A stretch of 48,146 nucleotides of DNA from Actinomycetes bacterium. GTDB taxonomy: Bacteria; Actinomycetota; Acidimicrobiia; Acidimicrobiales; Bog-793. A program made the position numbers and the translations under genes. The stretch is taken from contig JAJYVX010000005.1 of assembly GCA_021791795.1 (NCBI GenBank), positions 293 to 48,438 on the forward strand, in the 5' to 3' direction. Positions within the stretch are counted from its first letter, which is position 1. Every line of letters begins with the position of its first letter. Below are positions 10,224 through 48,146 of this stretch, piece by piece. Below the pieces are notes generated by a model that was not told the DNA's origin, did not search any database, and was given only the letters and a program-made list of their open reading frames with translations.

Positions 10224-10574
<351 letters not shown>

Positions 10575-10632
10575 TTCATCGAGCCGCCGGACCTTCCGAA
10601 TGGATGGCCGCACCTCGGACTGGAGGAGACCA

Positions 10633-11043: not shown

Positions 11044-11082
11044 GCGCGGCGCGGCGGCGGCCGGCCGCCAACCGTCCCGCGG

Positions 11083-33542: not shown

Positions 33543-34174
33543 CGGCGCTTCACGAAGTCCCTGCCGAGGGCGGAGGCGGCGACGTCAAGGTGCCCGATGC
33601 CGACGGCCGGGTGCCGGTGGTGCTCTTGGTGAACGGCGCACCCCACCGGGTGCACGTGCGGACCACCGAGGTGCTGCTCGACGTCCTGCGAGAAGACCTG
33701 AAGCTGGTAGGTGCCCGTAACGGCTGCGGGGTGGGCATGTGCGGCGCGTGCACCATCTTGAGGGACGGTCGGGCGGTGAGCAGTTGCCTCACACTCGCCG
33801 TCCTCTGCGAAGGAGCCGACCTCCGCACCATCGAAGGGCTGCGCGGAGGCGGCGGAGAAGGCGGCGAGGGCGGCGAGGGCGGGGGCCTGAGCCGAGTCCA
33901 GCGGGCCTTCCTCGAGCACCGGGCGTTCCAGTGCTCGTACTGCACGTCCGGTTTCATCCTCGCCCTCGAGGCACTTCTCGCCGTGGACTCGCATCCCACC
34001 GAGGCCGCCGTCCGCGAGGCCTTCAGCGGGCATCTCTGCCGGTGCGGCAGCTACTCGCGCATCATGGCCGCCGCTCGCCAGGCGGCCGGGCTGCCCTCCC
34101 GAGGAGGCTTGGCGAGGGGCGCGGTGACAGGCGGGGTGACAGGCTGCGCGCCGGACGAGGAGCCCGGGCGATGA
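33539..34174 (+). CDS. (2Fe-2S)-binding small subunit (enzyme 1)
   Basis: Contains GCGVGMCGACTIL and QCSYCTSGFIL...GHLCRCGSY. The ATGA start overlaps the large-subunit stop. Confidence 0.9.
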   Translation: MTALHEVPAEGGGGDVKVPDADGRVPVVLLVNGAPHRVHVRTTEVLLDVLREDLKLVGARNGCGVGMCGACTILRDGRAVSSCLTLAVLCEGADLRTIEGLRGGGGEGGEGGEGGGLSRVQRAFLEHRAFQCSYCTSGFILALEALLAVDSHPTEAAVREAFSGHLCRCGSYSRIMAAARQAAGLPSRGGLARGAVTGGVTGCAPDEEPGR

Positions 34175-35058
34175 GCCAACCGCTCGTGTTCTTCCCCACT
34201 ACGGTCGCCGAGGCGGTCGAGGTCCTCGACAGGTACGGGGGGGAGGCGAAGGTGGTGGCCGGTGGTACGGCCGTGAGCCTCATGCTGCAGCATCGCCTGA
34301 TCCAACCCGCAGCCCTCGTCTCCCTGCAACGGGTGGACGGCCTACGCGAGGTGGGCCGCACCGAGGAAGGGACGGCGGTCCGGCTCGGCGCGCTCGTCAC
34401 CCACGCCGAGGCGGCGCGCCACCCCTTCCTGAGATCAGCGGCCCCTCTCGTCGCCGACGCATTCGCCGTCGTGGGCAACCCGCAGGTGCGGGCCGCGGCC
34501 ACCGTCGGCGGTGTCCTCACCGAGGCCGACTACGCCTCCGACCCGCCCGCGGCGCTGCGGGCGATCGACGCCGTGGTGATCGCGCAGGGCCCGGCGGGCG
34601 CGCGCATCATCCCGGTCTACGACCTGCTGCTCGGCTTCTACGAGACGGCGCTCGCCGACAACGAGATCGTCTCGTCGGTCGTCGTGCCGTTGCTTCCCGA
34701 AGGAGCGGGCAGCGCGTATCTCAAGTACTCCTCGCGCTCGAGCGAGGACCGGCCCTGCGTCGGCGTGGCAGCGGTGGTCCGCCAGGCTCCCGACGGTTCG
34801 TGCGCAGAAGTGCGTGTCGTGCTCGGTGCCATCGCCGCGGTACCGGTACGGGTCCCGGAACTGGAGGCGGCAGCAGTCGGACGGCCGCTCGACCCTGCAG
34901 GCCTCGGTGACGCCTACGCCGAGGCGGTGGATCCGCTCGAGGATGTGCGAGGCTCGGCCTGGTACCGCCGCGAGATGGTACGAGTGTGGGTGGCGAGAGC
35001 GGTCACGGCCGCCCGGCACCGCTGCACCGGCGGCCCGCAGCCGCCGCCCGCCGGGTGA
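34171..35058 (+). CDS. FAD-binding (CoxM/XdhB-like) medium subunit (enzyme 1)
   Basis: Contains KVVAGGTAVSLMLQHRL, the NPQVRAAATVGGVL motif and DVRGSAWYRREM. The ATGA start overlaps the small-subunit stop. Confidence 0.9.
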   Translation: MSQPLVFFPTTVAEAVEVLDRYGGEAKVVAGGTAVSLMLQHRLIQPAALVSLQRVDGLREVGRTEEGTAVRLGALVTHAEAARHPFLRSAAPLVADAFAVVGNPQVRAAATVGGVLTEADYASDPPAALRAIDAVVIAQGPAGARIIPVYDLLLGFYETALADNEIVSSVVVPLLPEGAGSAYLKYSSRSSEDRPCVGVAAVVRQAPDGSCAEVRVVLGAIAAVPVRVPELEAAAVGRPLDPAGLGDAYAEAVDPLEDVRGSAWYRREMVRVWVARAVTAARHRCTGGPQPPPAG

Positions 35059-35098
35059 CAGGCGACAGGCGACAGGCGACAGGCGACAGGCGACAGGC
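35057..35098. repeat. Heptanucleotide microsatellite (GACAGGC)x6
   Basis: Counted directly. The first copy shares its first two bases with the stop TGA (35056-35058) of the preceding gene. The array lies about 100 bp upstream of the next operon's start. Confidence 0.95.
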
Positions 35099-35195
35099 AG
35101 GACAGCACGACCGCTGCCCGCATGTCGTCGGGGCCACGGCGCAACCACCACCTGGCTGCATACTCTGGTATACAGAGATCGACGAAGGGAGGGGG

Positions 35196-36074
35196 ATGGC
35201 ACGACTGCTCCGTCCGGAGACGGTCTCTCAGGCTTTGCGCCTGCTGGCGGATGGCGAGGTGGGCACGAAGCTCGTCGCGGGTGGCACGGCGGTCATGCTC
35301 ATGATGCGGGCCGGGTTGCTCTTCCCCGAGCGGCTCGTCGCCCTCGAGCACGTGGCAGACCTCGACTACGTCGAGGTCGAGCCCGACGCGGTGCGGCTAG
35401 GTGCGCTCACACGCCTGCGGGACCTCGAGCGATCCGTCCCGCTCGCCTCGGCGCTTCCGACGCTCGCGCGTGCGATCGGCTTCGTGGCCAACCACCGCGT
35501 CCGCAACAGGGCGACCATCGGGGGATGCCTCAGCGAGGCTGACTACGCCTCTGACCCTCCGGCGGTGCTCGCGAGCCTCGGGGCACGCGTGCGCTTGCGG
35601 AGCGTCCGGGGCGAACGGGAGGTCCCCGTCACCGACTTCCTCGTCGGCTACTACGAGACCGTGCTCGAGCACGACGAGCTTCTCACCGAGGTCGTCATCC
35701 CCCGGCCCGGGCCCCGGGTCCGAACGACCTACCTCAAGTACGTGAGCCGCTCGGCGGAGGACAGACCGTGCGTGGGCGTGGCGGCATACGTAGATGCCGA
35801 CGAGTCGGGCCGGACCGAAGAGGTCCGTGTGGCCGTCGGCGCCGCGACCGCAAACCCCTTCATGCTCGGCGACGTCGCGCAGATGCTCGGCGGTGGCCCC
35901 CTCGACGCGGGCGCCTGCCGGGCCGTGGGAGAGGCCTACGAGCGCGCGATCGAGCCGATCGGCGACGTCCGGGGCTCTTCGGACTACCGGCGCAAGGTGA
36001 CCGGCCGTCTCGTCGCAAGGGCGCTCGAGACAACCGCTCTCTCCGGCCACGGCAACGGGGCATTCCGGCTGTGA
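35196..36074 (+). CDS. FAD-binding (CoxM/XdhB-like) medium subunit (enzyme 2)
   Basis: A GAAGGGAGGGGG SD precedes the start. Contains KLVAGGTAVMLMMRAGL, NHRVRNRATIGGCL and DVRGSSDYRRKV. Confidence 0.9.
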   Translation: MARLLRPETVSQALRLLADGEVGTKLVAGGTAVMLMMRAGLLFPERLVALEHVADLDYVEVEPDAVRLGALTRLRDLERSVPLASALPTLARAIGFVANHRVRNRATIGGCLSEADYASDPPAVLASLGARVRLRSVRGEREVPVTDFLVGYYETVLEHDELLTEVVIPRPGPRVRTTYLKYVSRSAEDRPCVGVAAYVDADESGRTEEVRVAVGAATANPFMLGDVAQMLGGGPLDAGACRAVGEAYERAIEPIGDVRGSSDYRRKVTGRLVARALETTALSGHGNGAFRL

Positions 36075-38485
36075 GCGGGACTCTCGACGACTCGGGGGCA
36101 GCCGACTCGAGGGCAGGCGACTCGAGGGCAGCGGTGCCGGTCGCCGTCGGTGCCGCCGTCGGCCAGAGCATCGACGTCCTGCAGGCGAGGTCGCGGGTCG
36201 ACGGCACGGTCGAGTTCGCCCTCAACGCCGAGGTGCCCGGCATGACCCATGCAAGGCTGCTGCGCAGCCCCTACGCCCACGCGCGCATCGTCTCCATGGA
36301 CGTCAGCGCGGCCGAGAGGCTGCCTGGTGTCGTCTCGGTGCTCACGGCTGCGGACTTCGACCGGCCCGGCGCCCCTCACCGCTACCACGGGCCGGTCGTG
36401 AGGGATCAACCGGTGGTTTGTGGGAGGAGGGTGCGTTTCGCCGGGGATCCGGTCGCAGCCGTGGCGGCCGAGTCAGAGGAGATCGCTACGGCGGCCCTCG
36501 ATCGCATCGAAGTCGTCTACGAGGAGCTGCCCCGGGTGACCACCGTCGAGGAGGCCATGGCAGACGGAGCGCCTCTCGTCCACGACCGGCCGCCCGAGGT
36601 GCGCGACCACGGCTACGCCGACGTCCGGCTCGCAGGTGTGGGGGGCAACGTCTGCACGAAGTTCCAGCTGCGAAAGGGCGACGTCGATGCCGCCCTTGCC
36701 GGGTCCGACGTGGTCGTCGACCGCACCTACCACACTCCGGCAGTGCAGCACGTGACGATGGAGCCACACGTGGTGCTCGCCACCTACGACCGGCGGGCCT
36801 GTGCCCTCTCGGTGCTGAGCAGCACGCAGGGGCCGTTCGCCGTGCGTGACGCCCTCTGCGAGATGTTCCGCCTCCCGAGCTCCTCGGTGAGAGTCGTCGT
36901 CCCCCCGCTCGGGGGTGGCTACGGGGCGAAGACCTACGCCAAGTTCGAGCCGGTGGCCGCTGCGCTCTCCTGGAAGGCGGGGCGACCGGTGAAGCTCGTG
37001 CTGCCGCGCGACGAGGACTTCCTCTCGCTCACCAAGCACGCGGCGACGATCCGGATGCGGACAGGCGCCACCTTCGAGGGACGCCTCGTCGCGCGGGACG
37101 TCCAGATCTTCTTCAACGGCGGGGCGTATGCCGACATCAGCCCTCGTCTCATCAAGAACGGCGGCTACAGCTGTGTCGGCCCCTACGACATCCCCCACGT
37201 CCGCATCGACTCCTACGCTCTCTACACCAACCTCCCTCCTGCCGGCGCCTACCGCGGCTACGGCGTATCGCAGGCCGCGTGGGCCTACGAGCAGCAGATG
37301 GACGAGCTCGCCGACGTGCTCGGCATCGACCCCGTCGAGCTAAGGCGGCGCAACCTGCTCGTAAAGGGCGAGGCGTACGCGACCGGCGAGATCATGGACG
37401 AGGCGCACTGGGAGGCCCTGCTCGACAAGGCGGCGGCTGCCGTCGACTGGTCCCCCGATTCGCGGAGAGGCACGGGACCTTCTGGTCGGCTCCGGGGGAA
37501 GGGAGTTGCCGTCATCCTCAAGTCCACCGTCACGCCGTCCACGACGCATGCGGCGGTCCGTCTCGACGCCGACGGCACCATGCAGGTGTTCAGCTCGGCG
37601 GTGGAGATGGGGCAGGGCGCCCATACGGTGCTCGCCCAGCTGGCGGCTGACGCGGCGGGCATCCCCGTCGCGAACGTGCACGTGACCGCCCCCGACACCC
37701 AGTACACGCCTTACGACCAGACGACGAGCTCGAGCCGGACCACGCGCGCCATGGGCGGGGCGGTAACGAAGGCGGCTCGTGTCGTGCGTGACCGCGTCAG
37801 GCGCCTCGCCTCCGAGTTGCTCGAGGCCGACCCCGACGACCTCGTGGTCTCCGGCGGTACGGTCTTCGTCGCCGGCGTGCCCTCACGGAACCTCTCGGTC
37901 GCCGAGGTCTGCTATAGGACGAGGACCGGCAGCATCAGCGGCGACGGCGACGTCGTCACCTCCGGCGGACTCGACCCCGAGACGGGTCAGGGTGTGGCGA
38001 GCGACCACTGGCACGAGGGGGCGGCGTCCGCCGAGGTGGAGATAGATCCGGCGACCGGCAAGGTCTACGTGACCAACCTCTACGTGGCGGCATATGCGGG
38101 CCGCGTCGTCAACCCGAAGCTCGCCCGCCTGCAGATGCACGGAAGCGCTCTCTTCGGGATGAGCCACGCCCTGTACGAGGAGCTCGTGTTCGACAACGGC
38201 GTGCTCACCAACCCGAACCTGTCCGAGTACTCGATCGTCTCCATGGGCGACATGCCTCGACACCTCGAGGTCGAGCTCCTCGAGGAGCCCGGCGAGGCGG
38301 GGATCCACGGCCTCGGCGAGACGGGACTGCCTCCGGTGATCGCCGCCCTCGGCAACGCCGTGGCGAGCGCGACCGGGGCGCGGGTGCGGCAACTGCCGAT
38401 GACGCCCGAAAGAGTCCTGCAGGCGATGGAGGCGCGGGGGGCGACGGAGGAGCGGGACGCCTTGAGGGGACTGGAGGAGCGATGA
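36071..38485 (+). CDS. XDH/aldehyde-oxidase/CoxL-family molybdopterin-binding large subunit (enzyme 2)
   Basis: The GTG start overlaps the upstream stop (GTGA). Contains PLGGGYGAKTYAKFEP, PPAGAYRGYGVSQAAWAYEQQMD and SSVEMGQGAHTVLAQ. Confidence 0.9.
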   Translation: MSGTLDDSGAADSRAGDSRAAVPVAVGAAVGQSIDVLQARSRVDGTVEFALNAEVPGMTHARLLRSPYAHARIVSMDVSAAERLPGVVSVLTAADFDRPGAPHRYHGPVVRDQPVVCGRRVRFAGDPVAAVAAESEEIATAALDRIEVVYEELPRVTTVEEAMADGAPLVHDRPPEVRDHGYADVRLAGVGGNVCTKFQLRKGDVDAALAGSDVVVDRTYHTPAVQHVTMEPHVVLATYDRRACALSVLSSTQGPFAVRDALCEMFRLPSSSVRVVVPPLGGGYGAKTYAKFEPVAAALSWKAGRPVKLVLPRDEDFLSLTKHAATIRMRTGATFEGRLVARDVQIFFNGGAYADISPRLIKNGGYSCVGPYDIPHVRIDSYALYTNLPPAGAYRGYGVSQAAWAYEQQMDELADVLGIDPVELRRRNLLVKGEAYATGEIMDEAHWEALLDKAAAAVDWSPDSRRGTGPSGRLRGKGVAVILKSTVTPSTTHAAVRLDADGTMQVFSSAVEMGQGAHTVLAQLAADAAGIPVANVHVTAPDTQYTPYDQTTSSSRTTRAMGGAVTKAARVVRDRVRRLASELLEADPDDLVVSGGTVFVAGVPSRNLSVAEVCYRTRTGSISGDGDVVTSGGLDPETGQGVASDHWHEGAASAEVEIDPATGKVYVTNLYVAAYAGRVVNPKLARLQMHGSALFGMSHALYEELVFDNGVLTNPNLSEYSIVSMGDMPRHLEVELLEEPGEAGIHGLGETGLPPVIAALGNAVASATGARVRQLPMTPERVLQAMEARGATEERDALRGLEER

Positions 38486-38988
38486 CGGAGGGCGGCAAGA
38501 TCACCGTCTCCTGCGTCCTCAACGGCGCCAAGACCGATCTCTGCGGGGAGGCCGCCCAACCGGCGTCCGAAGCGCTTCGCCGTGAGGGGCTGTTCGGGGT
38601 GCGCGAGACCTGCTCGCTCGGTGTCTGCGGCACCTGCACGGTGCTGCTCGACGGCGAACCCGTCAGTGCCTGCATCCTGCCCTTCTACGCTCTTGAGGGG
38701 TCTGAGGTACGCACAGTCGAGGGCCTCGAGTCGGGCGGGCGGCTCAGCGCCCTGCAGCAGCAGTTCATCGAGTCGCAAGCGTTCCAGTGCTCTTTCTGCA
38801 CGCCCGGTTTCCTGCTGAGCGCCGCGGCCCTGCTCGACTCCACCGAGGGGGCGCTCACCGACGAGCAGGTGGAGGAGGGCCTGCAGGGCCATCTCTGCCG
38901 GTGCGGGTGCTACGAGACCGTCAAGGAGGCCGTGCGAGCCGTAGCCGCGAGACGGCACGGTCAGGACGCCGGCCGAGGCGCCCGATGA
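38482..38988 (+). CDS. (2Fe-2S)-binding small subunit (enzyme 2)
   Basis: Contains CSLGVCGTCTVLL and QCSFCTPGFLL...GHLCRCGCY. The start is an ATGA overlap. Confidence 0.9.
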   Translation: MTEGGKITVSCVLNGAKTDLCGEAAQPASEALRREGLFGVRETCSLGVCGTCTVLLDGEPVSACILPFYALEGSEVRTVEGLESGGRLSALQQQFIESQAFQCSFCTPGFLLSAAALLDSTEGALTDEQVEEGLQGHLCRCGCYETVKEAVRAVAARRHGQDAGRGAR

Positions 38989-39983
38989 GCTGGCCGCACC
39001 GGCGCCCGTTCGCTGCCGTCCACGACCGGATCCCCTACTCGCCCATCGTCGACCGTGCGCCGATCGAATGGCCCGGTGGCGCCCTCGTGGCGGTGTGGGT
39101 CGTCCCGAACATCGAGCACTACGAGTACCTGCCTCCGCCGGGCACGGTCGACGCCTACCCCCGCACCCCCCACCCAGACGTGCGCAAGTACGCGTACCAC
39201 GACTACGGCAACCGGGTCGGCTTCTGGCGGATGCTCGAGGTCCTCGACCGCCACTCCGTTCCTTGCACGGTCTCGCTCAATGCGGCAGTGCTCGACCACT
39301 ACCCCGAGGTGGCGGCGGCGATGGTCGAGCGGCAGTGGGAATTCATGAGCCATGGCCTGTACAACACCCGCTACCTCTGGGGGATGAGCCGCGACGAGGA
39401 GCTCGCCTTCCTCCAGCAGTGCAACCGGGTGCTCGAGCGCCACACCGGCCGGCGCTTTGACGGGATGCTCGGCCCGAACATAAGCGCCAGCCCGTGGACC
39501 CCGGATCTCATGGCCGAAGTGGGCATGCGCTACCACGCGGACTGGGTGCACGACGAAAGGCCCACTCCTCTGCTCACGGCAAGCGGACGCCCGATGGTGG
39601 CGCTTCCCTACAGCTACGAGCTGAACGACGCTCCGCTCCTCATGCGAGGCCACGTCGAGGGTCCCGCCTACGCCGAAAGGGCGATGGCCCAGTTCGACCG
39701 CCTCTATGCGGAGGCGGCAACCGCCCGAGCCGGCGCGGGAGCCGGCGCGGGAGCCGCGGGCGGAACCGCCGGGGGCGGACGACTCATGTGCCTCCCGCTC
39801 CACCCCTTCGCCGTCGGCCAACCCCACCGAGTCCGGCACCTCGACAGGCTCCTCGGGCACATCAGGGAGCACGACCGGGTCTTCATGGCGCGGGGCGGGG
39901 AGATCGTCGAGCACTACCTGTCGCACAACTTCGAGGCGGATCTGGCCCAGGCAACCGGCGAGGGGACGAGGCGAGATGGATGA
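38985..39983 (+). CDS. Polysaccharide-deacetylase-fold hydrolase, PuuE (allantoinase)-like, paralog 1
   Basis: WPGGALVAVWVVPNIEHYE, DYGNRVGFWRMLEVLDRHSVPCTVSLNAAVLDHYPE, EFMSHG and ALPYSYELND give the same block order as PuuE-type cyclic-amide hydrolases. The start is an ATGA overlap. Confidence 0.8.
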   Translation: MSWPHRRPFAAVHDRIPYSPIVDRAPIEWPGGALVAVWVVPNIEHYEYLPPPGTVDAYPRTPHPDVRKYAYHDYGNRVGFWRMLEVLDRHSVPCTVSLNAAVLDHYPEVAAAMVERQWEFMSHGLYNTRYLWGMSRDEELAFLQQCNRVLERHTGRRFDGMLGPNISASPWTPDLMAEVGMRYHADWVHDERPTPLLTASGRPMVALPYSYELNDAPLLMRGHVEGPAYAERAMAQFDRLYAEAATARAGAGAGAGAAGGTAGGGRLMCLPLHPFAVGQPHRVRHLDRLLGHIREHDRVFMARGGEIVEHYLSHNFEADLAQATGEGTRRDG

Positions 39984-40923
39984 GGCGGCACGCAACGTCA
40001 TCCCGGCGTCGTCCGACGGAACGAGTGCTGCTCGACCCGGCTACGACCACGACTGGTTCGAGTGGGCTCCGATCCCCGACCGTCCACGGCTCTCCTGGCC
40101 CGACGGTGCCTCGCTCGCCGTGGCGGTGGTCGTCAACCTCACGGCGGTGGAGTGGGAGGCGGACGGACCCGGACCGGTCCCACCGCCGGGCGGCCGGGGC
40201 GTCGGGGCTCATCCTGACTTCCCCCGCATGTCTCACCGGGAGTTCGGCCACCGGGTGGGCGTCTTCCGCCTCCTCGCCATCGCGACGGATCTCGGTCTAC
40301 CGGTCGCGGCGGCCGTGGACGTGCTCACCGCCGAGCACTACCCTTCGCTCCTCGCCCATCTCCTGCCCGCGGCCGACGAGGTGCTCGCAGGGGGACTCAG
40401 CGCCAGCCGACCGGTCACCTCGCTCATGAGCAAGGAGGAGGAAGCCGACTACGTGACGGTCACCCTGGAACGCCTGGAGCGCGCCATCGGCGTCCGCCCG
40501 AGAGGGTGGATCAGCCCGGAGAACAGCCAGTCCGATCGGACGCCGGCCGTGCTCGCCGCCGCAGGGGTCGACTACCTGGCCGACTGGGGCAACGACGACC
40601 AGCCATACCCCTTAAGCGGGCTCGGCGCGGGCCTGTGGTCGTTTCCCCTCTCATGGGAGCTGAGCGACCTCTCCGCCATGTTCCTCCGGGGAGTGAGCCC
40701 GGGCGACTACATGGCGAGCGTGGACGAAGCGGCCGCTGTCCTCTCCGCCGAGGGCGACGCCGGGCCGGGCAGAGTCCTCGGCCTCCATCTGCACCCTTGG
40801 GTGTCCGGGCAGGCGTTTCGCTCCGGCGCAGTCGAGCAGGCACTGACCCGGCTGCGCGAGCGCCCCCGGGTGTGGCTGTCCACTCCCGGCCGGATCGTCG
40901 AGTGGTGCAGAGGGGCGGCGTGA
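39976..40923 (+). CDS. Polysaccharide-deacetylase-fold hydrolase, PuuE-like, paralog 2 (more divergent)
   Basis: WPDGASLAVAVVVNLTAVEWE, EFGHRVGVFRLLAIATDLGLPVAAAVDVLTAEHYP and SFPLSWELSD are present. It overlaps the upstream gene by 8 nt. Confidence 0.75.
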   Translation: MDEAARNVIPASSDGTSAARPGYDHDWFEWAPIPDRPRLSWPDGASLAVAVVVNLTAVEWEADGPGPVPPPGGRGVGAHPDFPRMSHREFGHRVGVFRLLAIATDLGLPVAAAVDVLTAEHYPSLLAHLLPAADEVLAGGLSASRPVTSLMSKEEEADYVTVTLERLERAIGVRPRGWISPENSQSDRTPAVLAAAGVDYLADWGNDDQPYPLSGLGAGLWSFPLSWELSDLSAMFLRGVSPGDYMASVDEAAAVLSAEGDAGPGRVLGLHLHPWVSGQAFRSGAVEQALTRLRERPRVWLSTPGRIVEWCRGAA

Positions 40924-41918
40924 CTCGGCCGCGCATCGCTCTCATGTGCACCGGTGGCACCATCGACTCCCTCGGTGCCTCCCGCCTCGACCTCGCCTGG
41001 TACACCGAGACCGGCCAGAGGCTCGACGACGGCGAGATGCTGGCCGCGCTCCCCGAGCTGAGCGAGTTCGCGGACGTCGAGCAGATCGCCTCTCCTCGCC
41101 GGCCCAGCTACGAGATCACGTCCCGCGACTGGCTCGCCCTTGCAGGCGCGGTCAACGGCCTGCTTGCGAGGCCCGACATCGCCGGGGTGGTGGTCACCCA
41201 CGGGACGAACACGCTCGAAGAGACCGCCTACTTCCTCCATCTCGTGACCGTGCCACCCAAGCCGGTCGTCCTCGTCGGGGCGATGCGGCCGGCCAACGGG
41301 CCCGGCAGCGAGGGGCAGTTGAACCTGCTCCGCGCCGTGCAGGTCGCCGCCGACCCGGCGGCGCGCGGACTCGGGGCCCTCGTCGTCATGAACGACAACA
41401 TCCACGGAGCCCGGGACGTCACGAAGACCCATACGTTCCGGCCGGACACGTTCCGGTCGCCCGATGCCGGACCGCTCGGGATCGCGGATGCCGACGGGAG
41501 GATCGTCTTCTATCACCGCCCCTTTCACCCACCCTCAGGACGCCCCCTATTCGCCGTGGACCAGCTGAGCGACCTGCCCCGGGTCGACGTGGTCGTATCT
41601 CACGTCGGAGCCGACGGAGCTCTCGTCGACGCCGCGGTGGCGGCCGGGTGCAGGGGTCTCGTCAACGCGGGCACTGGAGCCGGCAGGCCGACGGCCGGCG
41701 AGCAGGCCGCAATGGACCGGGCGGCGCAGGCGGGCGTGGTCGTCTGCCAGGCGAGCCGCGTGGGCTCGGGTCGCGTCTCCCGCTCGCCCGGGATGGCGGC
41801 CCGCGGCGTCGTGGCGGCGGACAACCTCCCCGCATGGAAGGCACGTGTGCTGCTCTTGCTCGCCCTCACGAAGACCTCCGACCCGGAGGCCGTCCAGGAC
41901 ATGTTCGACCGCCTGTGA
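40920..41918 (+). CDS. L-asparaginase/glutaminase-family amidohydrolase (type II-like, no signal peptide)
   Basis: Contains IALMCTGGTIDS (the TGGTI catalytic Thr motif), VVVTHGTNTLEETAYFL (HGTDT-like) and VLVGAMRPA. The start is a GTGA overlap. Confidence 0.85.
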   Translation: MTRPRIALMCTGGTIDSLGASRLDLAWYTETGQRLDDGEMLAALPELSEFADVEQIASPRRPSYEITSRDWLALAGAVNGLLARPDIAGVVVTHGTNTLEETAYFLHLVTVPPKPVVLVGAMRPANGPGSEGQLNLLRAVQVAADPAARGLGALVVMNDNIHGARDVTKTHTFRPDTFRSPDAGPLGIADADGRIVFYHRPFHPPSGRPLFAVDQLSDLPRVDVVVSHVGADGALVDAAVAAGCRGLVNAGTGAGRPTAGEQAAMDRAAQAGVVVCQASRVGSGRVSRSPGMAARGVVAADNLPAWKARVLLLLALTKTSDPEAVQDMFDRL

Positions 41919-41967
41919 GACGCTCTCGCTCCGTCCCTCGCTCCCGCCGGCACACGGCAGGCGAGCG

Positions 41968-43656
41968 ATGAGCAAAACCCAGCCTGTGCGCAACACGCTG
42001 CTTACCCTCCTCGACGCCGCTCAGCTGACCGGCTACTACGCGGCGGGCCACTGGCAGGAGGACACCATCTACGCGCTCGTCGCGAGGCGGGCGAGTCTCG
42101 AGCCGGAGAAGGTCGCCGTGCGAGAGGCCGGCCGCCACGTCACCTACGCCGAGCTGGTCGACGCGGCCGACCGCCTGGCCGGAGCACTCGAGGCGGCCGG
42201 CCTTCGACCCGGCCAGCGCGTCGCCGCATGGCTCTCGAGCCGCATCGAGACCGCGGCGGCCGTGCTCGCCTGCTCACGCAACGGCTACGTGTGCTCCCCC
42301 TCGCTGCACCGCGACCACACCGTCGCAGAGGTGACGGACCTGCTCAGCCGCATGCGTGCCGCCGCCCTCGTCGCCGAGAGGGGATACGGAGCCGATGCCG
42401 GCCGCGACGACATCTTCTCTCGCGCAGAAGAGCTCGACACGCTGAGACTGACGCTCGCGGTGCCTCCCCGCGAGGCTTCGAGCGGTGTCCTTCCCGAGAT
42501 CACCGGGCGATCCACCGGCAGGCCTGTCTCGAGTCCGGACACCGTCGTGTACCTCGCCTTCACCTCGGGCACGACCGGGGCACCGAAGGGCGTCATGCAC
42601 TCGGACAACACCCTGCTCGCCCCGGTCCGGGCGCTCGCGGCGGACTGGCAGCTCGGGGCTGACTCGGTCATCTACTCCTTGTCTCCGCTCAGCCACAACC
42701 TAGGTTTCGGGGCGATGATCCTCGCCCTCACCCAGGGGGGGGAGCTCGTCGTCCACGACCTGCCCCGCGGTGCCAGCCTGCTCGACCGCCTCGTAGAGAC
42801 GGGCACCACCTTCATCTTCGGCGTGCCGACGCATGCCATCGACCTCCTCGCCGAGCTGAGGGTGCGCGGGCTCGACCGGGTCGGCGCTGTGAAAGGGTTC
42901 CGCATCTCCGGATCCGCCGTGCCGCCCGCCGTGGCCGAGGGGCTGCTCGCCCACGGCGTCCTGCCGCAGAGCGGATACGGCATGACCGAGGCCGGCTCGC
43001 ACCACTACACGAGGCCGGACGACCCCGCCGAGATCGTCGTGCGCACGTCGGGCCGCGCCTGCGCAGGGTACGAGGTGAGGATCTTCTCGCGCGACGAGCC
43101 CGACCGGGAGCTCCCGAACGGCGAGGTGGGCCAGATCGGTGGTCGTGGCGCCGGGCTGATGCTCGGGTACTTCGACGACCAGACCGGGACGGAGGAGTCG
43201 TTCAACCGCGGGGGCTGGTTTCTCACGGGAGACCTCGGGTGGTTGGACGACGCGGGGAACATCCGGATCACGGGCAGGAAGAAAGACATCATCATCCGCG
43301 GCGGCCACAACATCTTCCCGGCGAAGATCGAGGCGCTCGCCCTCCGCCATCCCGCCCTGGACAAGGCCGCAGCCGTCCCCGTTCCCGACGAGCGCCTGGG
43401 CGAGCGGGTGTGCCTCGTCGTCGTCCTGGAGCCCGGAGCGGTGCTCGAGCCGGACGGTCTGCTCGAGCACCTCGACGAGAGCGGCCTTTCTCGCTACGAC
43501 ATGCCCGAGTACGTGCTCATGCTCGACGAGATCCCGCTCATGCCGTCCGGCAAGATCTTCAAGCGGCGGCTGGTCGAGTGGGTCGAGAGCGGCCGGGTCA
43601 CGCCGACCCCGGTGCGCTTCACGCGGAAGCGGCCCCCCGCAGGCGAGGCAGAGTGA
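41968..43656 (+). CDS. AMP-forming acyl-CoA synthetase/ligase (ANL superfamily)
   Basis: Contains LAFTSGTTGAPKGV, QSGYGMTE, WFLTGDLG, GRKKDIIIRGGHNIFP and the terminal PSGKIFKR. Confidence 0.9.
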   Translation: MSKTQPVRNTLLTLLDAAQLTGYYAAGHWQEDTIYALVARRASLEPEKVAVREAGRHVTYAELVDAADRLAGALEAAGLRPGQRVAAWLSSRIETAAAVLACSRNGYVCSPSLHRDHTVAEVTDLLSRMRAAALVAERGYGADAGRDDIFSRAEELDTLRLTLAVPPREASSGVLPEITGRSTGRPVSSPDTVVYLAFTSGTTGAPKGVMHSDNTLLAPVRALAADWQLGADSVIYSLSPLSHNLGFGAMILALTQGGELVVHDLPRGASLLDRLVETGTTFIFGVPTHAIDLLAELRVRGLDRVGAVKGFRISGSAVPPAVAEGLLAHGVLPQSGYGMTEAGSHHYTRPDDPAEIVVRTSGRACAGYEVRIFSRDEPDRELPNGEVGQIGGRGAGLMLGYFDDQTGTEESFNRGGWFLTGDLGWLDDAGNIRITGRKKDIIIRGGHNIFPAKIEALALRHPALDKAAAVPVPDERLGERVCLVVVLEPGAVLEPDGLLEHLDESGLSRYDMPEYVLMLDEIPLMPSGKIFKRRLVEWVESGRVTPTPVRFTRKRPPAGEAE

Positions 43657-43670
43657 CCGCCTCGGCGGCC

Positions 43671-44672
43671 ATGCGGGCCGTCCGGGTCCGGTCGTTCGGC
43701 TTCCCACCCGATGCGGCCCTGGAGGAATGCGAGACGCCGGAGCCCGGACCGGGCGAGTTGCTGATCGCCGTGCGCGCAGCTCCGGTCAACTACGTCGACC
43801 TTCTCACCATGCGAGGTGAGTACCAGTTCAAGCCGGAGCTGCCCTACACGCCGGGCAAGGGCCCTGCGGGAGTGGTCGTCGCCACCGGGCCGGGCGCAGA
43901 CGGCTGGGCCGTCGGGACCCGGGTGCTCGCCATGGCGGAGTACGGGGGCTACGCCGAAGCTGTCGTCGTCCCGCAACAAAGCGCCTACCTGCTTCCCGAC
44001 AGCCTCCCCTTCACCGCCGCCGGCGCCATGTCGCTCGCATTCGACACGGCATGGGTGTCCTTGCGCGAGCGTGCCCGCCTGGTGCCGGGCGAGTCGGTTC
44101 TCGTCCTCGGGGCGAACGGGGCCGTCGGCAGCGCGGCTGTGCAGCTGGCCGTGGCGATGGGAGCGTCGCCCGTGCTTGCCGGCGTCTCCTCGCCCGAGAG
44201 GTACGCGGACCTCGACCACCTCGGTGCCGGCGGGATGGTCGATCTCTCTCGCCCGGGCTTGCGCGACAGCGTTCGCGAGCAGGTGTTCGCCCTCACCGAT
44301 GGGCGGGGCGTGGACGTCGTCGTCGACCCGCTCGGCGGAGATCCCTTCGACGGCGCCGTCCGGGCGTTGGCGTGGCGTGGGCGGTTGGTGGTGGTCGGCT
44401 TCGCTTCCGGCCGGATCCCGACGCTCGCGGCGAACTACCTCCTCTTGAAGAACATAGAGGTGTCCGGTATCCAGATAAGCGACTATCGGAAGAAGACGCC
44501 CGAGCTGCTGGAGGAGTGCTACCGGGATGTCTTCTCGCTCTACGTCGCCGGCAAGGTGGTCGCACCGGCGATCGTCAGGTACCCGCTCGAGTCCTGGCAA
44601 GCCGCCGTCAGCGATTTCGCGTCGCACAGGGCCAAGGGGCGAGTGCTGCTCGTCCCGGACGGCGAGGATTGA
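43671..44672 (+). CDS. MDR-superfamily NADPH:quinone-oxidoreductase/zeta-crystallin-like reductase
   Basis: Contains ELLIAVRAAPVNYVDLL, GESVLVLGANGAVGSAAVQLA (AxxGxxG) and GRLVVVGFASG. No catalytic Zn ligand pattern is present. An alternative GTG 43653 overlaps the upstream stop. Confidence 0.85.
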   Translation: MRAVRVRSFGFPPDAALEECETPEPGPGELLIAVRAAPVNYVDLLTMRGEYQFKPELPYTPGKGPAGVVVATGPGADGWAVGTRVLAMAEYGGYAEAVVVPQQSAYLLPDSLPFTAAGAMSLAFDTAWVSLRERARLVPGESVLVLGANGAVGSAAVQLAVAMGASPVLAGVSSPERYADLDHLGAGGMVDLSRPGLRDSVREQVFALTDGRGVDVVVDPLGGDPFDGAVRALAWRGRLVVVGFASGRIPTLAANYLLLKNIEVSGIQISDYRKKTPELLEECYRDVFSLYVAGKVVAPAIVRYPLESWQAAVSDFASHRAKGRVLLVPDGED

Positions 44673-44690
44673 CGCGGTGGCGGGCGCGTG

Positions 44691-45197
44691 TCACCGGAAG
44701 GGCAGCACCAGTTGCGTGCAGGTGAAGCGCGCCATCAGGCGCCGGGTGGCGTTGCGCTCGTCGGCTGCGGAGAAGACGTCGACGTCCTGCACGATCGAGC
44801 GACGCCCGATGTGCACCGGGCGGGCCTCGGCCACGAGCGTCGTGCCCGCATCAGCCCGGCTGAGCAGGTGGCAGGTCAGGTCGAAGGTCGCGAAGTTGCC
44901 GGCTGGCACTGCACCGTCGCTCGCCCATCCGGCGACGGCATCGGCGAAGGCGACGAGCGCCCCACCCTGGGGACCCCCCCGCTGGTTGAGGTGCAGGGGT
45001 GTGAGCATCATCTCCGCCCTGGCCCGTCCGACGCCGATGTGGGTGAGGCGCATGCCCATCGCGTCGAGGAAGCAGCCCGGCGGCGTGCCCGCCAATTCCT
45101 CGGGCACGGCCACCATGCCTTCCGTCGGAGCGAGGCCGGCCAGCTCGAAGAGAGGGGTGGTGCTCGAGGGTTCCTGCACGAGTTGCTCACCTTTCAT
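44691..45197 (-). CDS. PaaI/hotdog-fold thioesterase
   Basis: GMRLTHIGVGRARAEMMLTPLHLNQRGGPQGGALVAFADAVAG...GRRSIVQDVDVF is a typical PaaI-family core. The internal ATG 45197 of ORF 44691..45377 was chosen. Confidence 0.8.
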   Translation of the reverse strand: MKGEQLVQEPSSTTPLFELAGLAPTEGMVAVPEELAGTPPGCFLDAMGMRLTHIGVGRARAEMMLTPLHLNQRGGPQGGALVAFADAVAGWASDGAVPAGNFATFDLTCHLLSRADAGTTLVAEARPVHIGRRSIVQDVDVFSAADERNATRRLMARFTCTQLVLPFR

Positions 45198-45419
45198 CAC
45201 TCGCCACCCGGCGCGCTGCCTTCTCGGTCCCATTTGGCCGCGGCACGGTCGGTATGCCGCTGCATACATTACGATCCGGCCCGGATCGAGTACGGACGCC
45301 GCGGCGATCCACCGAGAAGAGACGGATCTGTCGTTGGAACGCTGCGACCTCGGCGGCCGCTGGGACGTCTGCGACACCGCGTTTCGCCCGGTGCCCGTCC
45401 GAACCCGCGGGAGGCAGTG

Positions 45420-46097
45420 ATGGCCAAGAGATCGACGGCAGGGCGAGCTGTGCCGGCACGCCTCTCACCTACCCGGCGAGTCGTGCCCTACGAGCGCATC
45501 AAGCAGGCCATCATGTCCGGCGACCTCGAACCCGGTGCCCCGCTCGTCGAGCTGGCGCTGGCGGAGTGGTGCGAGGTGAGCAGGACACCGGTGCGCGAAG
45601 CGCTTCTCAGGCTCGAGCAGGACGGGCTCGTCGTCCGTGGCGACCAGGGCCTCTCGGTCCGGGAGAGCAGCCCGGAAGAGATCCTCGACATCTACGACAC
45701 GCGCATCGTGCTCGAAGCTCGGGCTGCGGCTGTGGCTGCCGAGCGCCGCACCTCCCACGACCTCATGGCCATGCGCCGCCTGACAGACAAGTTCTCCCAC
45801 TGCGACGCGGAGGAGGCGAGCGCGCTCGCCGAGACGAACCGCGAATTCCATCGCTCCGTCTGGCGCGCCAGCCACAACGACTCGCTTGTCGACCTGCTCG
45901 AACGGCTGAATCTGCTGCTCGGCCGATACCCTGCCACGACGCTCGCCTTCCCCGGCCGGTGGAAGACGGCGAGCGTTGAGCACAACAAGCTCCTGCTCGC
46001 CATCGAAGCCCGAGACGAGGAGGAAGCCGCCGCGGTGGCCACGCGTCACTTCTCCGCAGCGCGCGACATCCGGCTTCGCTTGTGGGAGGGCGAGTAG
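45420..46097 (+). CDS. GntR-family regulator, FadR subfamily (wHTH + FCD domain)
   Basis: The wHTH reads YERIKQAIMSGDLEPGAPLVELALAEWCEVSRTPVREALLRLEQDGLV. The FCD-like helical domain contains IYDTRIVLEARAA, NREFHRSVW and EHNKLLLAIEARDEEEA. A GGGAGG SD precedes the start. Confidence 0.85.
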   Translation: MAKRSTAGRAVPARLSPTRRVVPYERIKQAIMSGDLEPGAPLVELALAEWCEVSRTPVREALLRLEQDGLVVRGDQGLSVRESSPEEILDIYDTRIVLEARAAAVAAERRTSHDLMAMRRLTDKFSHCDAEEASALAETNREFHRSVWRASHNDSLVDLLERLNLLLGRYPATTLAFPGRWKTASVEHNKLLLAIEARDEEEAAAVATRHFSAARDIRLRLWEGE

Positions 46098-46265
46098 CCA
46101 TCGGGATCACGCACTGCTCGGTTGGAGGGGACACCAGCTGCCGACGTCGCTCGGTCTCGGCGAGCGGCACCTTGCGACGCCTAGGAGCATTGGAGCACCA
46201 TATGATTGCATGCGTAGGTACACCGTTGCATGCAGAGGAGAGGCTGTGACGGGAGTGCCGGCGAG

Positions 46266-47741: not shown

Positions 47742-47762
47742 CCTCGTCCGGCTCGTAGCCTC
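47729..47762. repeat. Perfect 17-bp tandem duplication (GTCCGGCTCGTAGCCTC x2) spanning the tcuA-like stop codon
   Basis: Counted directly at 47729-47745 and 47746-47762. The first copy contains the TAG stop (47739-47741). Confidence 0.95.
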
Positions 47763-48146
47763 CGCCCGGATCCCGTTGAATCCTGACGGGAGCAGGGTCG
47801 CATTCGGCCGCACACGAGAACCCGAACGGCAAGCGATTCGCGGTGGAAGCGTCGCGAGCGACCTGGGCGAGCGCTCGCAAAGGCAGACATTCCTGTCAGG
47901 TCAGGCGAGCACCTGTCACTTCTCGCCGGTGCGGCGGCGTTCGCGCCCTGTCGCGACCGGCCATACGGCTGGAGAGTCACGAGGCGCTCCGCGGCCGCTC
48001 AGCACCGAAGCAGCGTTAGCTGCTCGTCGTCACCGCAGGTCGCGTCGTCGCCGCGCAACTCGCCGCCGAACGCCGGCTCCGGCTCCGGCTCAGGCGCCGG
48101 CGCGGGGTCGGTCGCCTCGGCGCCCCTCGCCTCGGGGCCCGTCGCC

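What the first reader, a model, noticed from the sequence alone, without database searches (positions are those of the whole stretch)
38985..41918. Translationally coupled hydrolase trio (two PuuE-like deacetylase-fold paralogs plus an asparaginase-type amidase) directly behind a Mo-hydroxylase
The junctions are ATGA (38985), an 8-nt overlap (39976-39983) and GTGA (40920). All three genes are therefore chained to the enzyme-2 small subunit. The PuuE fold is established as a metal-independent cyclic-amide (allantoin) hydrolase, and asparaginases hydrolyse carboxamides. Together they look like a module that opens a ring imide or lactam and then releases NH3. No urate oxidase, HIU hydrolase, OHCU decarboxylase or allantoicase is present. 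Classical purine catabolism therefore does not explain the PuuE-like genes.
Basis: partly seen in the sequence, partly recalled or inferred. Interest (0 to 1): 0.6.

Follow-up and report, generated by a model that had tools for sequence, protein, structure and literature searches.

The report
Paired imide hydrolase plus amidase module
Three overlapping genes most likely open a ring imide and release ammonia during breakdown of a pyridine-4-carboxylate such as isonicotinate. The two PuuE-like proteins appear to work as one two-part enzyme, a pairing that is widespread in bacteria but that I found described nowhere.

Summary
Genes A (38985-39983), B (39976-40923) and C (40920-41918) overlap by ATGA, 8 nt and GTGA, directly behind the small subunit of a Mo-hydroxylase.

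- **A** is a PuuE-family protein with an invariant Glu44, His123 and His273, but Asn127 where PuuE has Trp.
- **B** is its 31%-identical paralog. In this actinobacterial cluster type it has lost the Glu and the His.
- **A and B as a pair:** A is followed by B in 83 of 84 fetched loci. All 49 long homologs are A-B fusions. A complex model supports binding (0.69 against 0.00 for controls).
- **C** has the type II asparaginase fold, but the residues that hold the amino group of L-Asn are replaced. HGTNT stands in place of HGTDT in 120 of 120 homologs.

The operon also holds two Mo-hydroxylases, a CoA ligase, an MDR reductase, a thioesterase and TcuA. This matches the isonicotinate, citrazinate, glutarimide-CoA, tricarballylate route of Mycobacterium sp. 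INA1. I found no published genes for that route.

Purine catabolism and sugar deacetylation are rejected. All evidence is computational. First readers of this scan had already noted tandem PuuE-like pairs on other genomes.

The parts
38985..39983 (+). Gene A: PuuE-family (NodB-fold) putative catalytic subunit of a cyclic imide hydrolase, 332 aa. It carries a 17-residue Ala/Gly insertion that is unique to this copy.
   Evidence: Polysacc_deac_1 at 1.2e-10 and TIGR03212 at 113 bits, below the 424.6 cut-off. PDB 1z7a, 3cl6 and 3s6o at 1e-18 to 1e-21. N42, E44, H45, E47, H123, N127 and H273 are invariant in 65 family members.
39976..40923 (+). Gene B: paralog of A (31% identity), 315 aa. It lacks the PuuE Glu and His and is the putative non-catalytic partner subunit.
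   Evidence: BLASTP of A against B gives 4e-40. PDB 3rxz, 3s6o and 3cl6 at 1e-13 to 2e-17. T56 and G139 sit at the E44 and H123 columns. B follows A in 83 of 84 loci. 49 of 49 long homologs are A-B fusions. Complex model 0.69 against a best control of 0.00.
40920..41918 (+). Gene C: cytoplasmic amidase with the type II asparaginase fold and HGTNT in place of HGTDT, 332 aa.
   Evidence: Asparaginase at 2.7e-52 and Asparaginase_C at 7.5e-27. TIGR00520 at 282 bits, below the 314 cut-off. 1wsa at 3e-73. D90 to N in 12 of 12 orthologs and 120 of 120 homologs.
38482..38988 (+). 2Fe-2S small subunit of Mo-hydroxylase 2. Its stop codon overlaps the start of A.
   Evidence: Fer2_2 at 1.3e-24. ATGA junction.
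35196..38485 (+). FAD subunit (about 35196-36074) and Mo large subunit (about 36071-38485) of Mo-hydroxylase 2.
   Evidence: FAD_binding_5 and CO_deh_flav_C. Ald_Xan_dh_C, MoCoBD_1 and MoCoBD_2.
31185..35058 (+). Mo-hydroxylase 1: large subunit (31185-33542), 2Fe-2S subunit (33539-34174) and FAD subunit (about 34171-35058).
   Evidence: Pfam hits. Orthologous set in Pseudonocardia.
41968..43656 (+). AMP-forming acyl-CoA ligase, the candidate citrazinate-CoA ligase.
   Evidence: AMP-binding at 5.8e-64. Nearest NCBIfam models are acid-CoA ligases, all below cut-off. Conserved in the cluster.
43671..44672 (+). MDR-family NADPH reductase of the PIG3/quinone-reductase and enoyl-thioester-reductase kind, the candidate citrazyl-CoA reductase.
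   Evidence: ADH_N and ADH_zinc_N. TIGR02824 at 194 bits, with weaker hits to acrylyl- and crotonyl-CoA reductase models.
44691..45377 (-). Hotdog-fold (4HBT/PaaI-like) thioesterase. This is the longest ORF and the true start is probably further downstream.
   Evidence: 4HBT at 5e-09. TIGR00369 and PaaD. In Streptomyces it is co-directional between the ligase and the reductase.
45480..46097 (+). GntR/FCD-family regulator. The start is approximate.
   Evidence: GntR and FCD. Present beside the cluster in Streptomyces and Arthrobacter.
46230..47741 (+). TcuA, the FAD-dependent tricarballylate dehydrogenase.
   Evidence: NF006130 at 580.8 bits, above the 369 cut-off. Over the cut-off in 5 of 5 other cluster-bearing genomes, 0 of 60 other genomes of the same class and 0 of 14 controls.

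Best explanation
**Overall role.** The three genes form the ring-opening and deamidation module of a catabolic operon for a pyridine-4-carboxylate, most likely isonicotinate or citrazinate.

**Upstream steps (inferred from gene content).**
1. Two Mo-hydroxylases make 2,6-dihydroxyisonicotinate (citrazinate).
2. The ligase makes its CoA thioester.
3. The MDR reductase saturates the enoyl-thioester double bond to give 2,6-dioxopiperidine-4-carboxyl-CoA, which is a 3-substituted glutarimide.

**The A/B enzyme.** A and B together form one PuuE-family cyclic imide hydrolase. It is heteromeric, and related genomes encode it as a single fused polypeptide. A carries the catalytic residues (Glu44, His123, His273, with Asn127 in place of the PuuE Trp). 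In this cluster type B has lost them and probably shapes or covers the A pocket. The enzyme cuts one C-N bond of the imide and gives the mono-amide of tricarballylate.

**The C enzyme.** C is built on the asparaginase scaffold and keeps the Thr/Tyr/Thr/Lys catalytic residues. Its amino-group-binding residues are replaced, and an Arg-bearing insertion is added. It hydrolyses the terminal carboxamide to NH3 and tricarballylate (or its CoA ester).

**Downstream steps.** The hotdog thioesterase removes CoA, probably before C acts. TcuA oxidises tricarballylate to cis-aconitate.

**Shown by computation:** gene order, the family relations, the residue patterns, the A-B pairing and fusion, and the TcuA co-occurrence. 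**Inferred:** substrate identities, the order of thioester cleavage, which subunit is active, and metal independence.
For: **Anatomy and coupling.**

**A and B belong to the PuuE fold family but are not PuuE.** They score 113 and 61 bits against a 424.6 cut-off, and they match PuuE-type PDB entries.

**Residue patterns.**
- In A, N42, E44, H123, N127 and H273 are invariant in 65 of 65 sequences.
- Actinobacterial B has G, R or T at the Glu column and G or A at the His column in 11 of 11.
- B of the Chloroflexota-dominated group keeps Glu in 47 of 54 and His in 53 of 54.

**A and B work together.**
- They are adjacent in 83 of 84 loci drawn from at least 588 matching stretches.
- 49 of 49 long homologs are A-B fusions in the same order.
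- One fusion, 72% and 61% identical to A and B, lies beside a C-like asparaginase, a TcuA-like gene and a GntR regulator.
- The complex model scores 0.69 (runs 0.67, 0.72, 0.69) against a best control of 0.00. That mark was reached by 58 of 80 solved complexes and 2 of 110 mismatched pairs. Partner pLDDT is at least 87 and contact agreement at least 85%.
- The modelled interface includes A residues next to the catalytic ones (45, 47-49, 125-126, 129, 279-281).

**Known chemistry of the family.** The PuuE-family enzymes BpIH, AfIH, P. putida CIH and HxnM hydrolyse 3-substituted glutarimides or a hydroxy-glutarimide (PMC11424739, PMC9304392).

**C.** D90 to N, Q59 to Y/S/T and no E283 equivalent, with T, Y, S, T and K kept. 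Asp90 is described as invariant and critical for substrate binding, and Glu283 repels citrate, a tricarboxylate that otherwise fits the pocket (PMC6667453).

**Context.**
- Two Mo-hydroxylases, a ligase, an MDR reductase, a thioesterase, a GntR regulator and TcuA.
- The same set recurs in Pseudonocardia, Streptomyces, Arthrobacter, and Acidimicrobiia and Frankiales MAGs.
- TcuA is over the cut-off in 5 of 5 cluster genomes, against 0 of 60 class relatives and 0 of 14 controls.
- TcuA converts tricarballylate to cis-aconitate (reference cited in PMC10468695).
- Mycobacterium sp. INA1 degrades isonicotinate through a 2,6-dihydroxy product made by Mo-hydroxylases (PMC4548258).
Against: - No enzyme of this cluster has been assayed, and no bearer is known to grow on isonicotinate.
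- The later INA1 steps (citrazyl-CoA, 2,6-dioxopiperidine-4-carboxyl-CoA, propane-1,2,3-tricarboxylate) rest on my memory of Kretzer and Andreesen 1991/1993. I could not read those papers.
- The Streptomyces and Arthrobacter loci show only one Mo-hydroxylase set within 10 kb of A. Their substrate may therefore be 2-hydroxyisonicotinate or something else.
- The complex model may pass from memory of solved PuuE-type homotetramers. It does not separate a heteromer from two homomers.
- Asn127 in place of Trp and the many invariant His of A (45, 184, 189, 281) leave open a different, possibly metal-dependent, mechanism.
- Asp90 is considered indispensable for catalysis in asparaginases, so the chemistry of C with Asn there is unproven.
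- No TcuB was found, so the electron acceptor of TcuA is unknown.
Confidence: 0.6

Rival explanations
1. The module has the same chemistry, imide or lactam opening followed by amide hydrolysis, but serves a different N-heterocycle. Candidates are another hydroxylated pyridine or pyridone carboxylate, or a pyrimidine-like ring. On this reading TcuA acts on a tricarballylate analogue.
For: - The substrate is inferred only from gene content.
- The A-B pair occurs in many unrelated catabolic contexts, beside HpaB, LigB, Amidohydro_1, luciferase-like, GMC and amidase genes.
- HGTNT asparaginase homologs sit beside Mo-hydroxylases in clusters without A-B.
- Some cluster versions show only one hydroxylase.
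Against: - TcuA scores above an equivalog cut-off and tracks the cluster.
- Only a 4-carboxy-2,6-dioxopiperidine yields tricarballylate on hydrolysis (chemical reasoning).
- Two hydroxylases plus a CoA ligase plus an NADPH enoyl-reductase type enzyme match the INA1 scheme step for step.
Confidence: 0.22
2. A and B are two separate homomeric enzymes acting in sequence or on different substrates. Alternatively, B is a decaying duplicate without function.
For: - PuuE and HpPgdA are homotetramers (PMC3084791).
- B of the Chloroflexota-dominated group keeps the Glu and His, so it could be an enzyme in its own right.
- The complex model cannot exclude homomers.
Against: - The A-then-B order is kept in 83 of 84 loci across phyla.
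- 49 of 49 long homologs are A-B fusions.
- B keeps 36 invariant positions across 31 sequences, which does not fit decay.
- Loss of the catalytic pair occurs in B only, never in A.
Confidence: 0.12
3. A and B are PuuE allantoinases and the cluster is a purine (xanthine to urate to allantoin) pathway.
For: JGI annotations call many homologs 'allantoinase'. The nearest NCBIfam model is PuuE. Mo-hydroxylases of the XDH family are adjacent.
Against: - Scores of 113 and 61 bits against a cut-off of 424.6.
- Trp of the Glu-His-Trp triad is replaced in A, and all three positions are lost in B.
- No uricase in the genome and no ureide-pathway gene in the window.
- A CoA ligase, an enoyl-type reductase, a thioesterase and TcuA have no role in purine breakdown.
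- The genome has a separate canonical Glu-His-Trp paralog elsewhere.
Confidence: 0.03
4. A and B are polysaccharide or peptidoglycan deacetylases, and C is an ordinary L-asparaginase placed here by chance.
For: Pfam Polysacc_deac_1 hit for A. Database names read 'polysaccharide deacetylase family protein' and 'L-asparaginase'.
Against: - No Asp-His-His metal triad in either protein.
- No signal peptides are evident at the N-termini.
- All three are translationally coupled inside a catabolic operon conserved across genera.
- C lacks Asp90, Gln59 and Glu283.
Confidence: 0.02

Closest known systems
PuuE allantoinase (Pseudomonas fluorescens, PDB 3CL6; P. aeruginosa 1Z7A)
   Same: Same NodB-derived fold family, with significant sequence matches. 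A keeps the Asn-x-Glu of motif 1, the first His of motif 2 and the His of motif 5. It is cytoplasmic and acts on a small cyclic amide or imide rather than a polymer.
   Different: About 25-27% identity, far below the TIGR03212 cut-off. The Trp of the Glu-His-Trp triad is Asn in A, and B lacks Glu, His and Trp. The proteins are encoded as an obligate A-B pair or fusion rather than one homotetramer subunit. There is no ureide-pathway context.
PuuE-family cyclic imide hydrolases, EC 3.5.2.16 (BpIH, AfIH, P. putida YZ-26 CIH, Aspergillus HxnM)
   Same: The proposed reaction class is hydrolysis of a piperidine-2,6-dione (glutarimide) to a glutaramate. BpIH and AfIH accept 3-isobutylglutarimide, which carries its substituent at the same ring position as the 4-carboxyl(-CoA) proposed here (PMC11424739). 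In the fungal pathway HxnM is followed by an amide hydrolase, HxnN (PMC9304392).
   Different: Those enzymes are about 60% identical to PuuE and keep Glu-His-Trp. They are single-gene enzymes. A and B form a separate, deeply branching pair with Glu-His-Asn in A and a degenerate B.
Type II L-asparaginase (E. coli EcAII; Wolinella succinogenes, PDB 1WSA)
   Same: About 45% identity over the full length. The TGGTI Thr, loop Tyr, Ser58, Thr89 and Lys162 equivalents are all present.
   Different: Asp90 is Asn (HGTNT) throughout the clade. Gln59 is Tyr, Ser or Thr. There is no Glu283 equivalent. A 2-residue insertion with a near-invariant Arg precedes the Ser. There is no signal peptide. The score is below the TIGR00520 cut-off. 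The genomic partners are Mo-hydroxylases rather than amino-acid metabolism genes.
Isonicotinate pathway of Mycobacterium sp. INA1 (Kretzer, Frunzke and Andreesen 1993; biochemistry only)
   Same: Two successive Mo-hydroxylations give the 2,6-dihydroxy product (PMC4548258). From my memory of the original papers, the later steps are CoA activation, NADPH reduction to 2,6-dioxopiperidine-4-carboxyl-CoA and hydrolysis to propane-1,2,3-tricarboxylate. Each step has a candidate gene here.
   Different: No gene sequences from INA1 were available to compare. The present organism is an uncultured actinobacterium, probably of the class Acidimicrobiia. No Mycobacterium was among the 80 best loci.
Salmonella tcuABC tricarballylate utilisation
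   Same: A TcuA ortholog scores above the equivalog cut-off.
   Different: No TcuB and no TcuC next to it. Here tricarballylate would be produced inside the cell.

Membership tests
PuuE allantoinase (TIGR03212 equivalog) | Score above the curated cut-off of 424.6 bits | tested here: not met
   A scores 113.4 bits and B 61.5 bits. The canonical paralog of the same genome scores 275.6 bits.
PuuE allantoinase (TIGR03212 equivalog) | Glu-His-Trp triad in place of the NodB Asp-His-His (Ramazzina 2008, as quoted in PMC11424739) | tested here: not met
   A has Glu44, His123 and Asn127. B has Thr56, Gly139 and Ala143.
PuuE allantoinase (TIGR03212 equivalog) | Genomic association with urate and ureide pathway genes | tested here: not met
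   None in the window. No uricase in the genome.
PuuE-type cyclic imide hydrolase (EC 3.5.2.16) | PuuE/NodB fold with the motif-1 Glu, motif-2 His and motif-5 His | tested here: met
   Met for A only: E44, H123 and H273 are invariant in 65 of 65. B keeps only the motif-5 His.
PuuE-type cyclic imide hydrolase (EC 3.5.2.16) | Hydrolysis of cyclic imides such as glutarimides | not testable with these tools
   Requires an enzyme assay.
PuuE-type cyclic imide hydrolase (EC 3.5.2.16) | Metal independence | not testable with these tools
   A lacks the Asp-His-His triad but has several other invariant His residues.
NodB polysaccharide deacetylase (CE4) | Asp-His-His metal triad and catalytic Asp of motif 1 | tested here: not met
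   Motif 1 is N-I-E in A and N-L-T in B. Motif 2 is H-x3-N in A and G-x3-A in B.
Type II L-asparaginase (TIGR00520) | Score above the cut-off of 314.3 bits | tested here: not met
   282.1 bits.
Type II L-asparaginase (TIGR00520) | Thr12, Tyr25, Thr89, Asp90, Lys162, with Asp90 invariant (PMC6667453) | tested here: not met
   Thr, Tyr, Thr and Lys are present. Asp90 is Asn in 12 of 12 orthologs and 120 of 120 homologs.
Type II L-asparaginase (TIGR00520) | Binding of the substrate alpha-amino group by Gln59, Asp90 and Glu283 of the neighbouring protomer. The roles are from my own knowledge, with Glu283 and Asp90 partly supported by PMC6667453. | tested here: not met
   The equivalents are Tyr/Ser/Thr, Asn, and no acidic residue.
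TcuA tricarballylate dehydrogenase (NF006130) | Score above the cut-off of 369 bits | tested here: met
   580.8 bits. Partner TcuB not found.
Isonicotinate catabolic cluster (INA1-type pathway) | A candidate gene for every biochemical step: two Mo-hydroxylases, CoA ligase, NADPH reductase, imide hydrolase, amidase and tricarballylate oxidation | tested here: met
   Conserved across genera.
Isonicotinate catabolic cluster (INA1-type pathway) | Growth on, or induction by, isonicotinate, and identity with INA1 enzyme sequences | not testable with these tools
   No INA1 sequences and no physiological data were available. The literature searches found none.

The most novel reading that the evidence does not exclude
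A and B define an unrecognised, widespread class of two-part (heteromeric or fused) PuuE-fold cyclic imide hydrolases. In this class one protomer has repeatedly turned into a non-catalytic partner. Together with an Asp90-to-Asn asparaginase-fold amidase, they supply the missing ring-opening and deamidation genes of the orphan isonicotinate-to-tricarballylate pathway. That pathway has been known only as enzyme activities since the early 1990s.
Probability: 0.45. Interest if true: 0.7.

Novelty: new variant of a known kind. Interest (0 to 1): 0.62.

Why it matters
- **An orphan pathway gets candidate genes.** If right, the finding gives genes to a pathway known only from biochemistry: breakdown of isonicotinate, the core of isoniazid and of many pyridine pollutants.
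- **Misleading database names.** Thousands of proteins labelled 'allantoinase' or 'polysaccharide deacetylase' would in fact be halves of a two-part imide hydrolase. The pair is especially common in the Dehalococcoidia MAGs fetched here, one of them titled SAR202. In my understanding SAR202 is an abundant deep-ocean group credited with degrading recalcitrant organic nitrogen.
- **A new use of the asparaginase scaffold.** The finding points to a large asparaginase-fold clade that has given up L-asparagine, which warns against annotation by name.
- **Possible biocatalysts.** PuuE-type imidases are used to desymmetrise 3-substituted glutarimides for pregabalin synthesis. A natural enzyme evolved for a 3-carboxy-type glutarimide could be a useful new catalyst.

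Tried and rejected
**Literature.**
- Searches for published genes of isonicotinate or citrazinate catabolism, or for any link between TcuA and pyridines, found nothing relevant.
- A search for SAR202 plus 'polysaccharide deacetylase' found nothing.
- The original INA1 papers, the 1996 pyridine review and the PuuE structure paper are not held. Their content is cited second-hand or marked as memory.

**Searches that gave no usable result.**
- Two genome-search runs failed on accession format.
- No bona fide PuuE was found in 60 genomes of the same class. I therefore built no rooted tree of A and B against PuuE, and relied on pairwise scores and on the canonical paralog of the genome itself.
- The promoter and terminator scan of 34900-46300 found no sites. 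In 69% GC DNA this says little.
- TcuB and uricase were sought in the genome and not found. Completeness is 92%, so absence is not proven.

I did not run single-chain structure prediction or fold search. Sequence matches to solved PuuE-type structures were already significant, and the tools return no coordinates for inspecting the active site.

**Readings rejected.** Allantoinase with purine catabolism, sugar deacetylases, and a true L-asparaginase. The reasons are given under the rival explanations.

Full report
**1. Observation**

The three frames and their junctions are as described. A is 38985-39983, B is 39976-40923 and C is 40920-41918. The junctions are ATGA at the stop of the preceding 2Fe-2S subunit gene (38482-38988), an 8-nt overlap (ATGGATGA) and GTGA. 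The window is 69% GC and full of chance ORFs. Third-position GC nevertheless picks out exactly these frames. The same three genes with the same 8-nt and 4-nt overlaps are called in Pseudonocardia bannensis and a Streptomyces strain. The 8-nt A/B overlap recurs in 11 fetched loci. No terminator-like or promoter-like site lies between 34900 and 46300, which is weak evidence in this kind of DNA.

**2. The operon**

On the + strand, in order:
- Mo-hydroxylase 1: large subunit 31185-33542, 2Fe-2S subunit 33539-34174, FAD subunit to 35058.
- Mo-hydroxylase 2: FAD subunit from about 35196, large subunit to 38485, 2Fe-2S subunit to 38988.
- A, B and C.
- An AMP-forming acyl-CoA ligase (41968-43656).
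- An MDR reductase of the PIG3/quinone-reductase kind, which also resembles acrylyl- and crotonyl-CoA reductase models (about 43671-44672).

Then follow a convergent hotdog thioesterase, a GntR/FCD regulator and TcuA (46230-47741). TcuA scores 580.8 bits against NF006130, above the 369 cut-off. The contig ends 400 bases later. Genes upstream of 30 kb are unrelated. They encode an ECF sigma factor, a P-type ATPase, a CLC channel and a polysulfide-reductase-like Mo enzyme.

**3. A and B**

*Family relations.* A matches Polysacc_deac_1. Both A and B match the PuuE model far below its cut-off, at 113 and 61 bits against 424.6. Both match solved PuuE-type structures: 1Z7A, 3CL6, 3S6O (91% identical to the imidase BpIH according to PMC11424739) and 3RXZ. 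A and B are 31% identical to each other. They are 27-30% identical to a third, canonical PuuE-like paralog on another contig of the same genome.

*Catalytic positions.* PuuE and BpIH replace the NodB Asp-His-His metal triad with Glu-His-Trp. A motif-5 His has been proposed to be catalytic (PMC11424739, quoting Ramazzina 2008). I aligned 65 non-redundant A-B pairs and made a nine-sequence alignment with the canonical paralog.
- A has Asn42-x-Glu44, His123 and His273 without exception, and Asn127 where the Trp should be.
- B behaves differently in two groups. In the 54 pairs from Chloroflexota-dominated genomes it keeps the Glu (47 of 54) and the His (53 of 54).
- In all 11 actinobacterial pairs, which are the ones in this operon type, the Glu is Gly, Arg or Thr and the His is Gly or Ala.
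- B is not decaying. It has 36 invariant columns across 31 sequences.

**4. A and B are one unit**

A scan of one genome per species found at least 588 stretches encoding an A relative, and the 80 best were fetched.
- With the four loci fetched earlier, A is followed by B in 83 of 84 loci. The exception is a Blastococcus locus that looks degraded.
- Only the actinobacterial loci carry the rest of the operon. The remaining 69 loci come mostly from Dehalococcoidia and other Chloroflexota MAGs (one titled SAR202), plus one locus each from Myxococcota, Entotheonellaceae and an unclassified bacterium. There the neighbours vary: HpaB monooxygenases, an Amidohydro_1 enzyme directly downstream in 22 loci, LigB dioxygenases, luciferase-like and GMC oxidoreductases, and amidase-signature enzymes.
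- A search among longer proteins returned 49 homologs of 611-714 residues. All 49 are A-B fusions in the same order.
- One fusion, 72% and 61% identical to A and B, sits between a C-like asparaginase and a TcuA-like gene with a GntR regulator. It belongs to this same cluster type, although a single contig could hide a frameshift.
- In the fusions the A domain keeps His...Asn in 45 of 49. The B domain mostly has Arg at the His position. The catalytic pair has therefore been lost in B more than once and never in A.
- A complex model of A with B scored 0.69 (three runs: 0.67, 0.72, 0.69) against a best control of 0.00. That mark was reached by 58 of 80 solved complexes and 2 of 110 mismatched pairs. 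Partner pLDDT was at least 87 and contact agreement at least 85%.
- Homotetramers of this family are solved (PMC3084791). The pass may therefore reflect likeness to them rather than this pair in particular.
- The modelled interface includes A residues flanking Glu44, His123 and His273. This suggests, but does not show, that B helps form the pocket of A.

**5. C**

C is about 45% identical to Wolinella L-asparaginase over its full length. It keeps the TGGTI threonine, the loop Tyr, the Ser58 equivalent, Thr89 and Lys162. Three features differ:
- Asp90 is Asn (HGTNT) in all 12 cluster orthologs and in all 120 best database homologs.
- Gln59 is Tyr, Ser or Thr.
- The Glu283 region holds no acid, and a two-residue insertion with a near-invariant Arg precedes the Ser.

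[quoted passage not shown] They also show that citrate can occupy the pocket anchored on Ser58, while Glu283 repels it (PMC6667453). The changes in C remove the negative charges that hold an ammonium group and would repel a carboxylate. That is what an amidase for tricarballylate mono-amide would need (inference). C has no signal peptide. HGTNT homologs also occur next to Mo-hydroxylases in clusters without A-B. The clade therefore looks like a general amidase of N-heterocycle catabolism.

**6. Pathway reading**

Mycobacterium sp. INA1 hydroxylates isonicotinate twice with Mo-enzymes to the 2,6-dihydroxy compound (PMC4548258). From my memory of Kretzer and Andreesen, the later steps are a CoA ligase, an NADPH reductase giving 2,6-dioxopiperidine-4-carboxyl-CoA, and hydrolysis to propane-1,2,3-tricarboxylate. 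Each step has a candidate gene here.
- The reduced intermediate is a 3-substituted glutarimide. This is the compound class that the PuuE-family imidases BpIH and AfIH accept. HxnM opens a hydroxy-glutarimide in the fungal nicotinate pathway and is followed by the amide hydrolase HxnN.
- TcuA converts tricarballylate to cis-aconitate (Lewis and Escalante-Semerena 2006, cited in PMC10468695).
- TcuA is over its cut-off in 5 of 5 other cluster-bearing genomes. In Pseudonocardia sp. H11422 it lies on the same contig just beyond the fetched locus.
- TcuA is over its cut-off in none of 60 other genomes of the same class and none of 14 control genomes.
- Among pyridine mono-carboxylates, only the 4-carboxy isomer gives tricarballylate after 2,6-dihydroxylation, reduction and hydrolysis (chemical reasoning).

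The order of thioester cleavage relative to A/B and C is unknown. The retained Ser58-type carboxylate anchor in C suggests that CoA is removed before C acts (inference).

**7. What it is not**

- It is not an allantoinase pathway. The PuuE scores are too low, the Trp is missing, no ureide genes are present and no uricase was found in the genome.
- It is not a sugar deacetylase pair, because neither protein has the metal triad.
- C is not an L-asparaginase.

**8. Novelty and limits**

I found no paper describing genes for isonicotinate catabolism, the A-B pairing, or the HGTNT clade. The library lacks most subscription journals, so this is not proof of absence. First readers of this scan had noted the same pathway idea for this window. 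They had also noted tandem PuuE-like pairs in at least six other genomes. Those notes are unverified. I tested the pairing, the TcuB absence and the insertion myself. Everything here is computational. The substrate, the subunit composition and the activity of C with Asn at position 96 need experiments.

Noticed in passing
window 39729-39780: A carries a 17-residue Ala/Gly-rich insertion encoded by 12-bp repeats, between the FDRLY helix and the LHP motif. None of the other 64 aligned A-family sequences has it.
   Followed up: partly
G000 contig C65:24191-25072 (-), locus L085: The same genome has a third PuuE-like paralog with the canonical N-Y-E, H...W and LHE motifs (275.6 bits to TIGR03212). 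It lies next to a hydantoinase/dihydropyrimidinase-like gene and an ABC solute-binding protein. It is probably a conventional imidase or allantoinase-type enzyme.
   Followed up: partly
L090:10001-11005 and L091:10001-11005: HGTNT asparaginase homologs (about 62% identical to C) lie next to three-subunit Mo-hydroxylases, MFS transporters, GntR/FCD regulators and RraA-like genes. No A-B pair is present. This suggests a wider role for the clade in N-heterocycle catabolism.
   Followed up: no
window 46230-48146: TcuA stands without TcuB or TcuC. No TcuB was found in the 92%-complete genome. The ORF after TcuA (47644 to the contig end) has no family match.
   Followed up: partly
L015 (Blastococcus brunescens chromosome): The A match spans 1489 bases and no B passes the length filter, although C, the reductase and GntR are present. 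The cluster looks degraded or rearranged there.
   Followed up: no
L016-L084 (69 loci, mostly Dehalococcoidia and other Chloroflexota MAGs): The A-B pair is very common in Dehalococcoidia MAGs (one titled SAR202). It sits in variable oxidative and hydrolytic clusters with HpaB, LigB, luciferase-like, GMC, Amidohydro_1 and amidase genes. One locus (L071) has three A copies.
   Followed up: partly
L093 (G014, same order as the window's genome) 9828-11662 (-): A distant A-B pair (40% and 35% identity) stands alone, without hydroxylase, ligase, C or TcuA within 10 kb.
   Followed up: partly
L094:8001-9992 (Candidatus Poriferisodalis, a 3.9-Mb contig): A natural A-B fusion of 663 aa lies beside two large CoA-transferase genes and a luciferase-like monooxygenase. 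This is a further context for the fused form.
   Followed up: no
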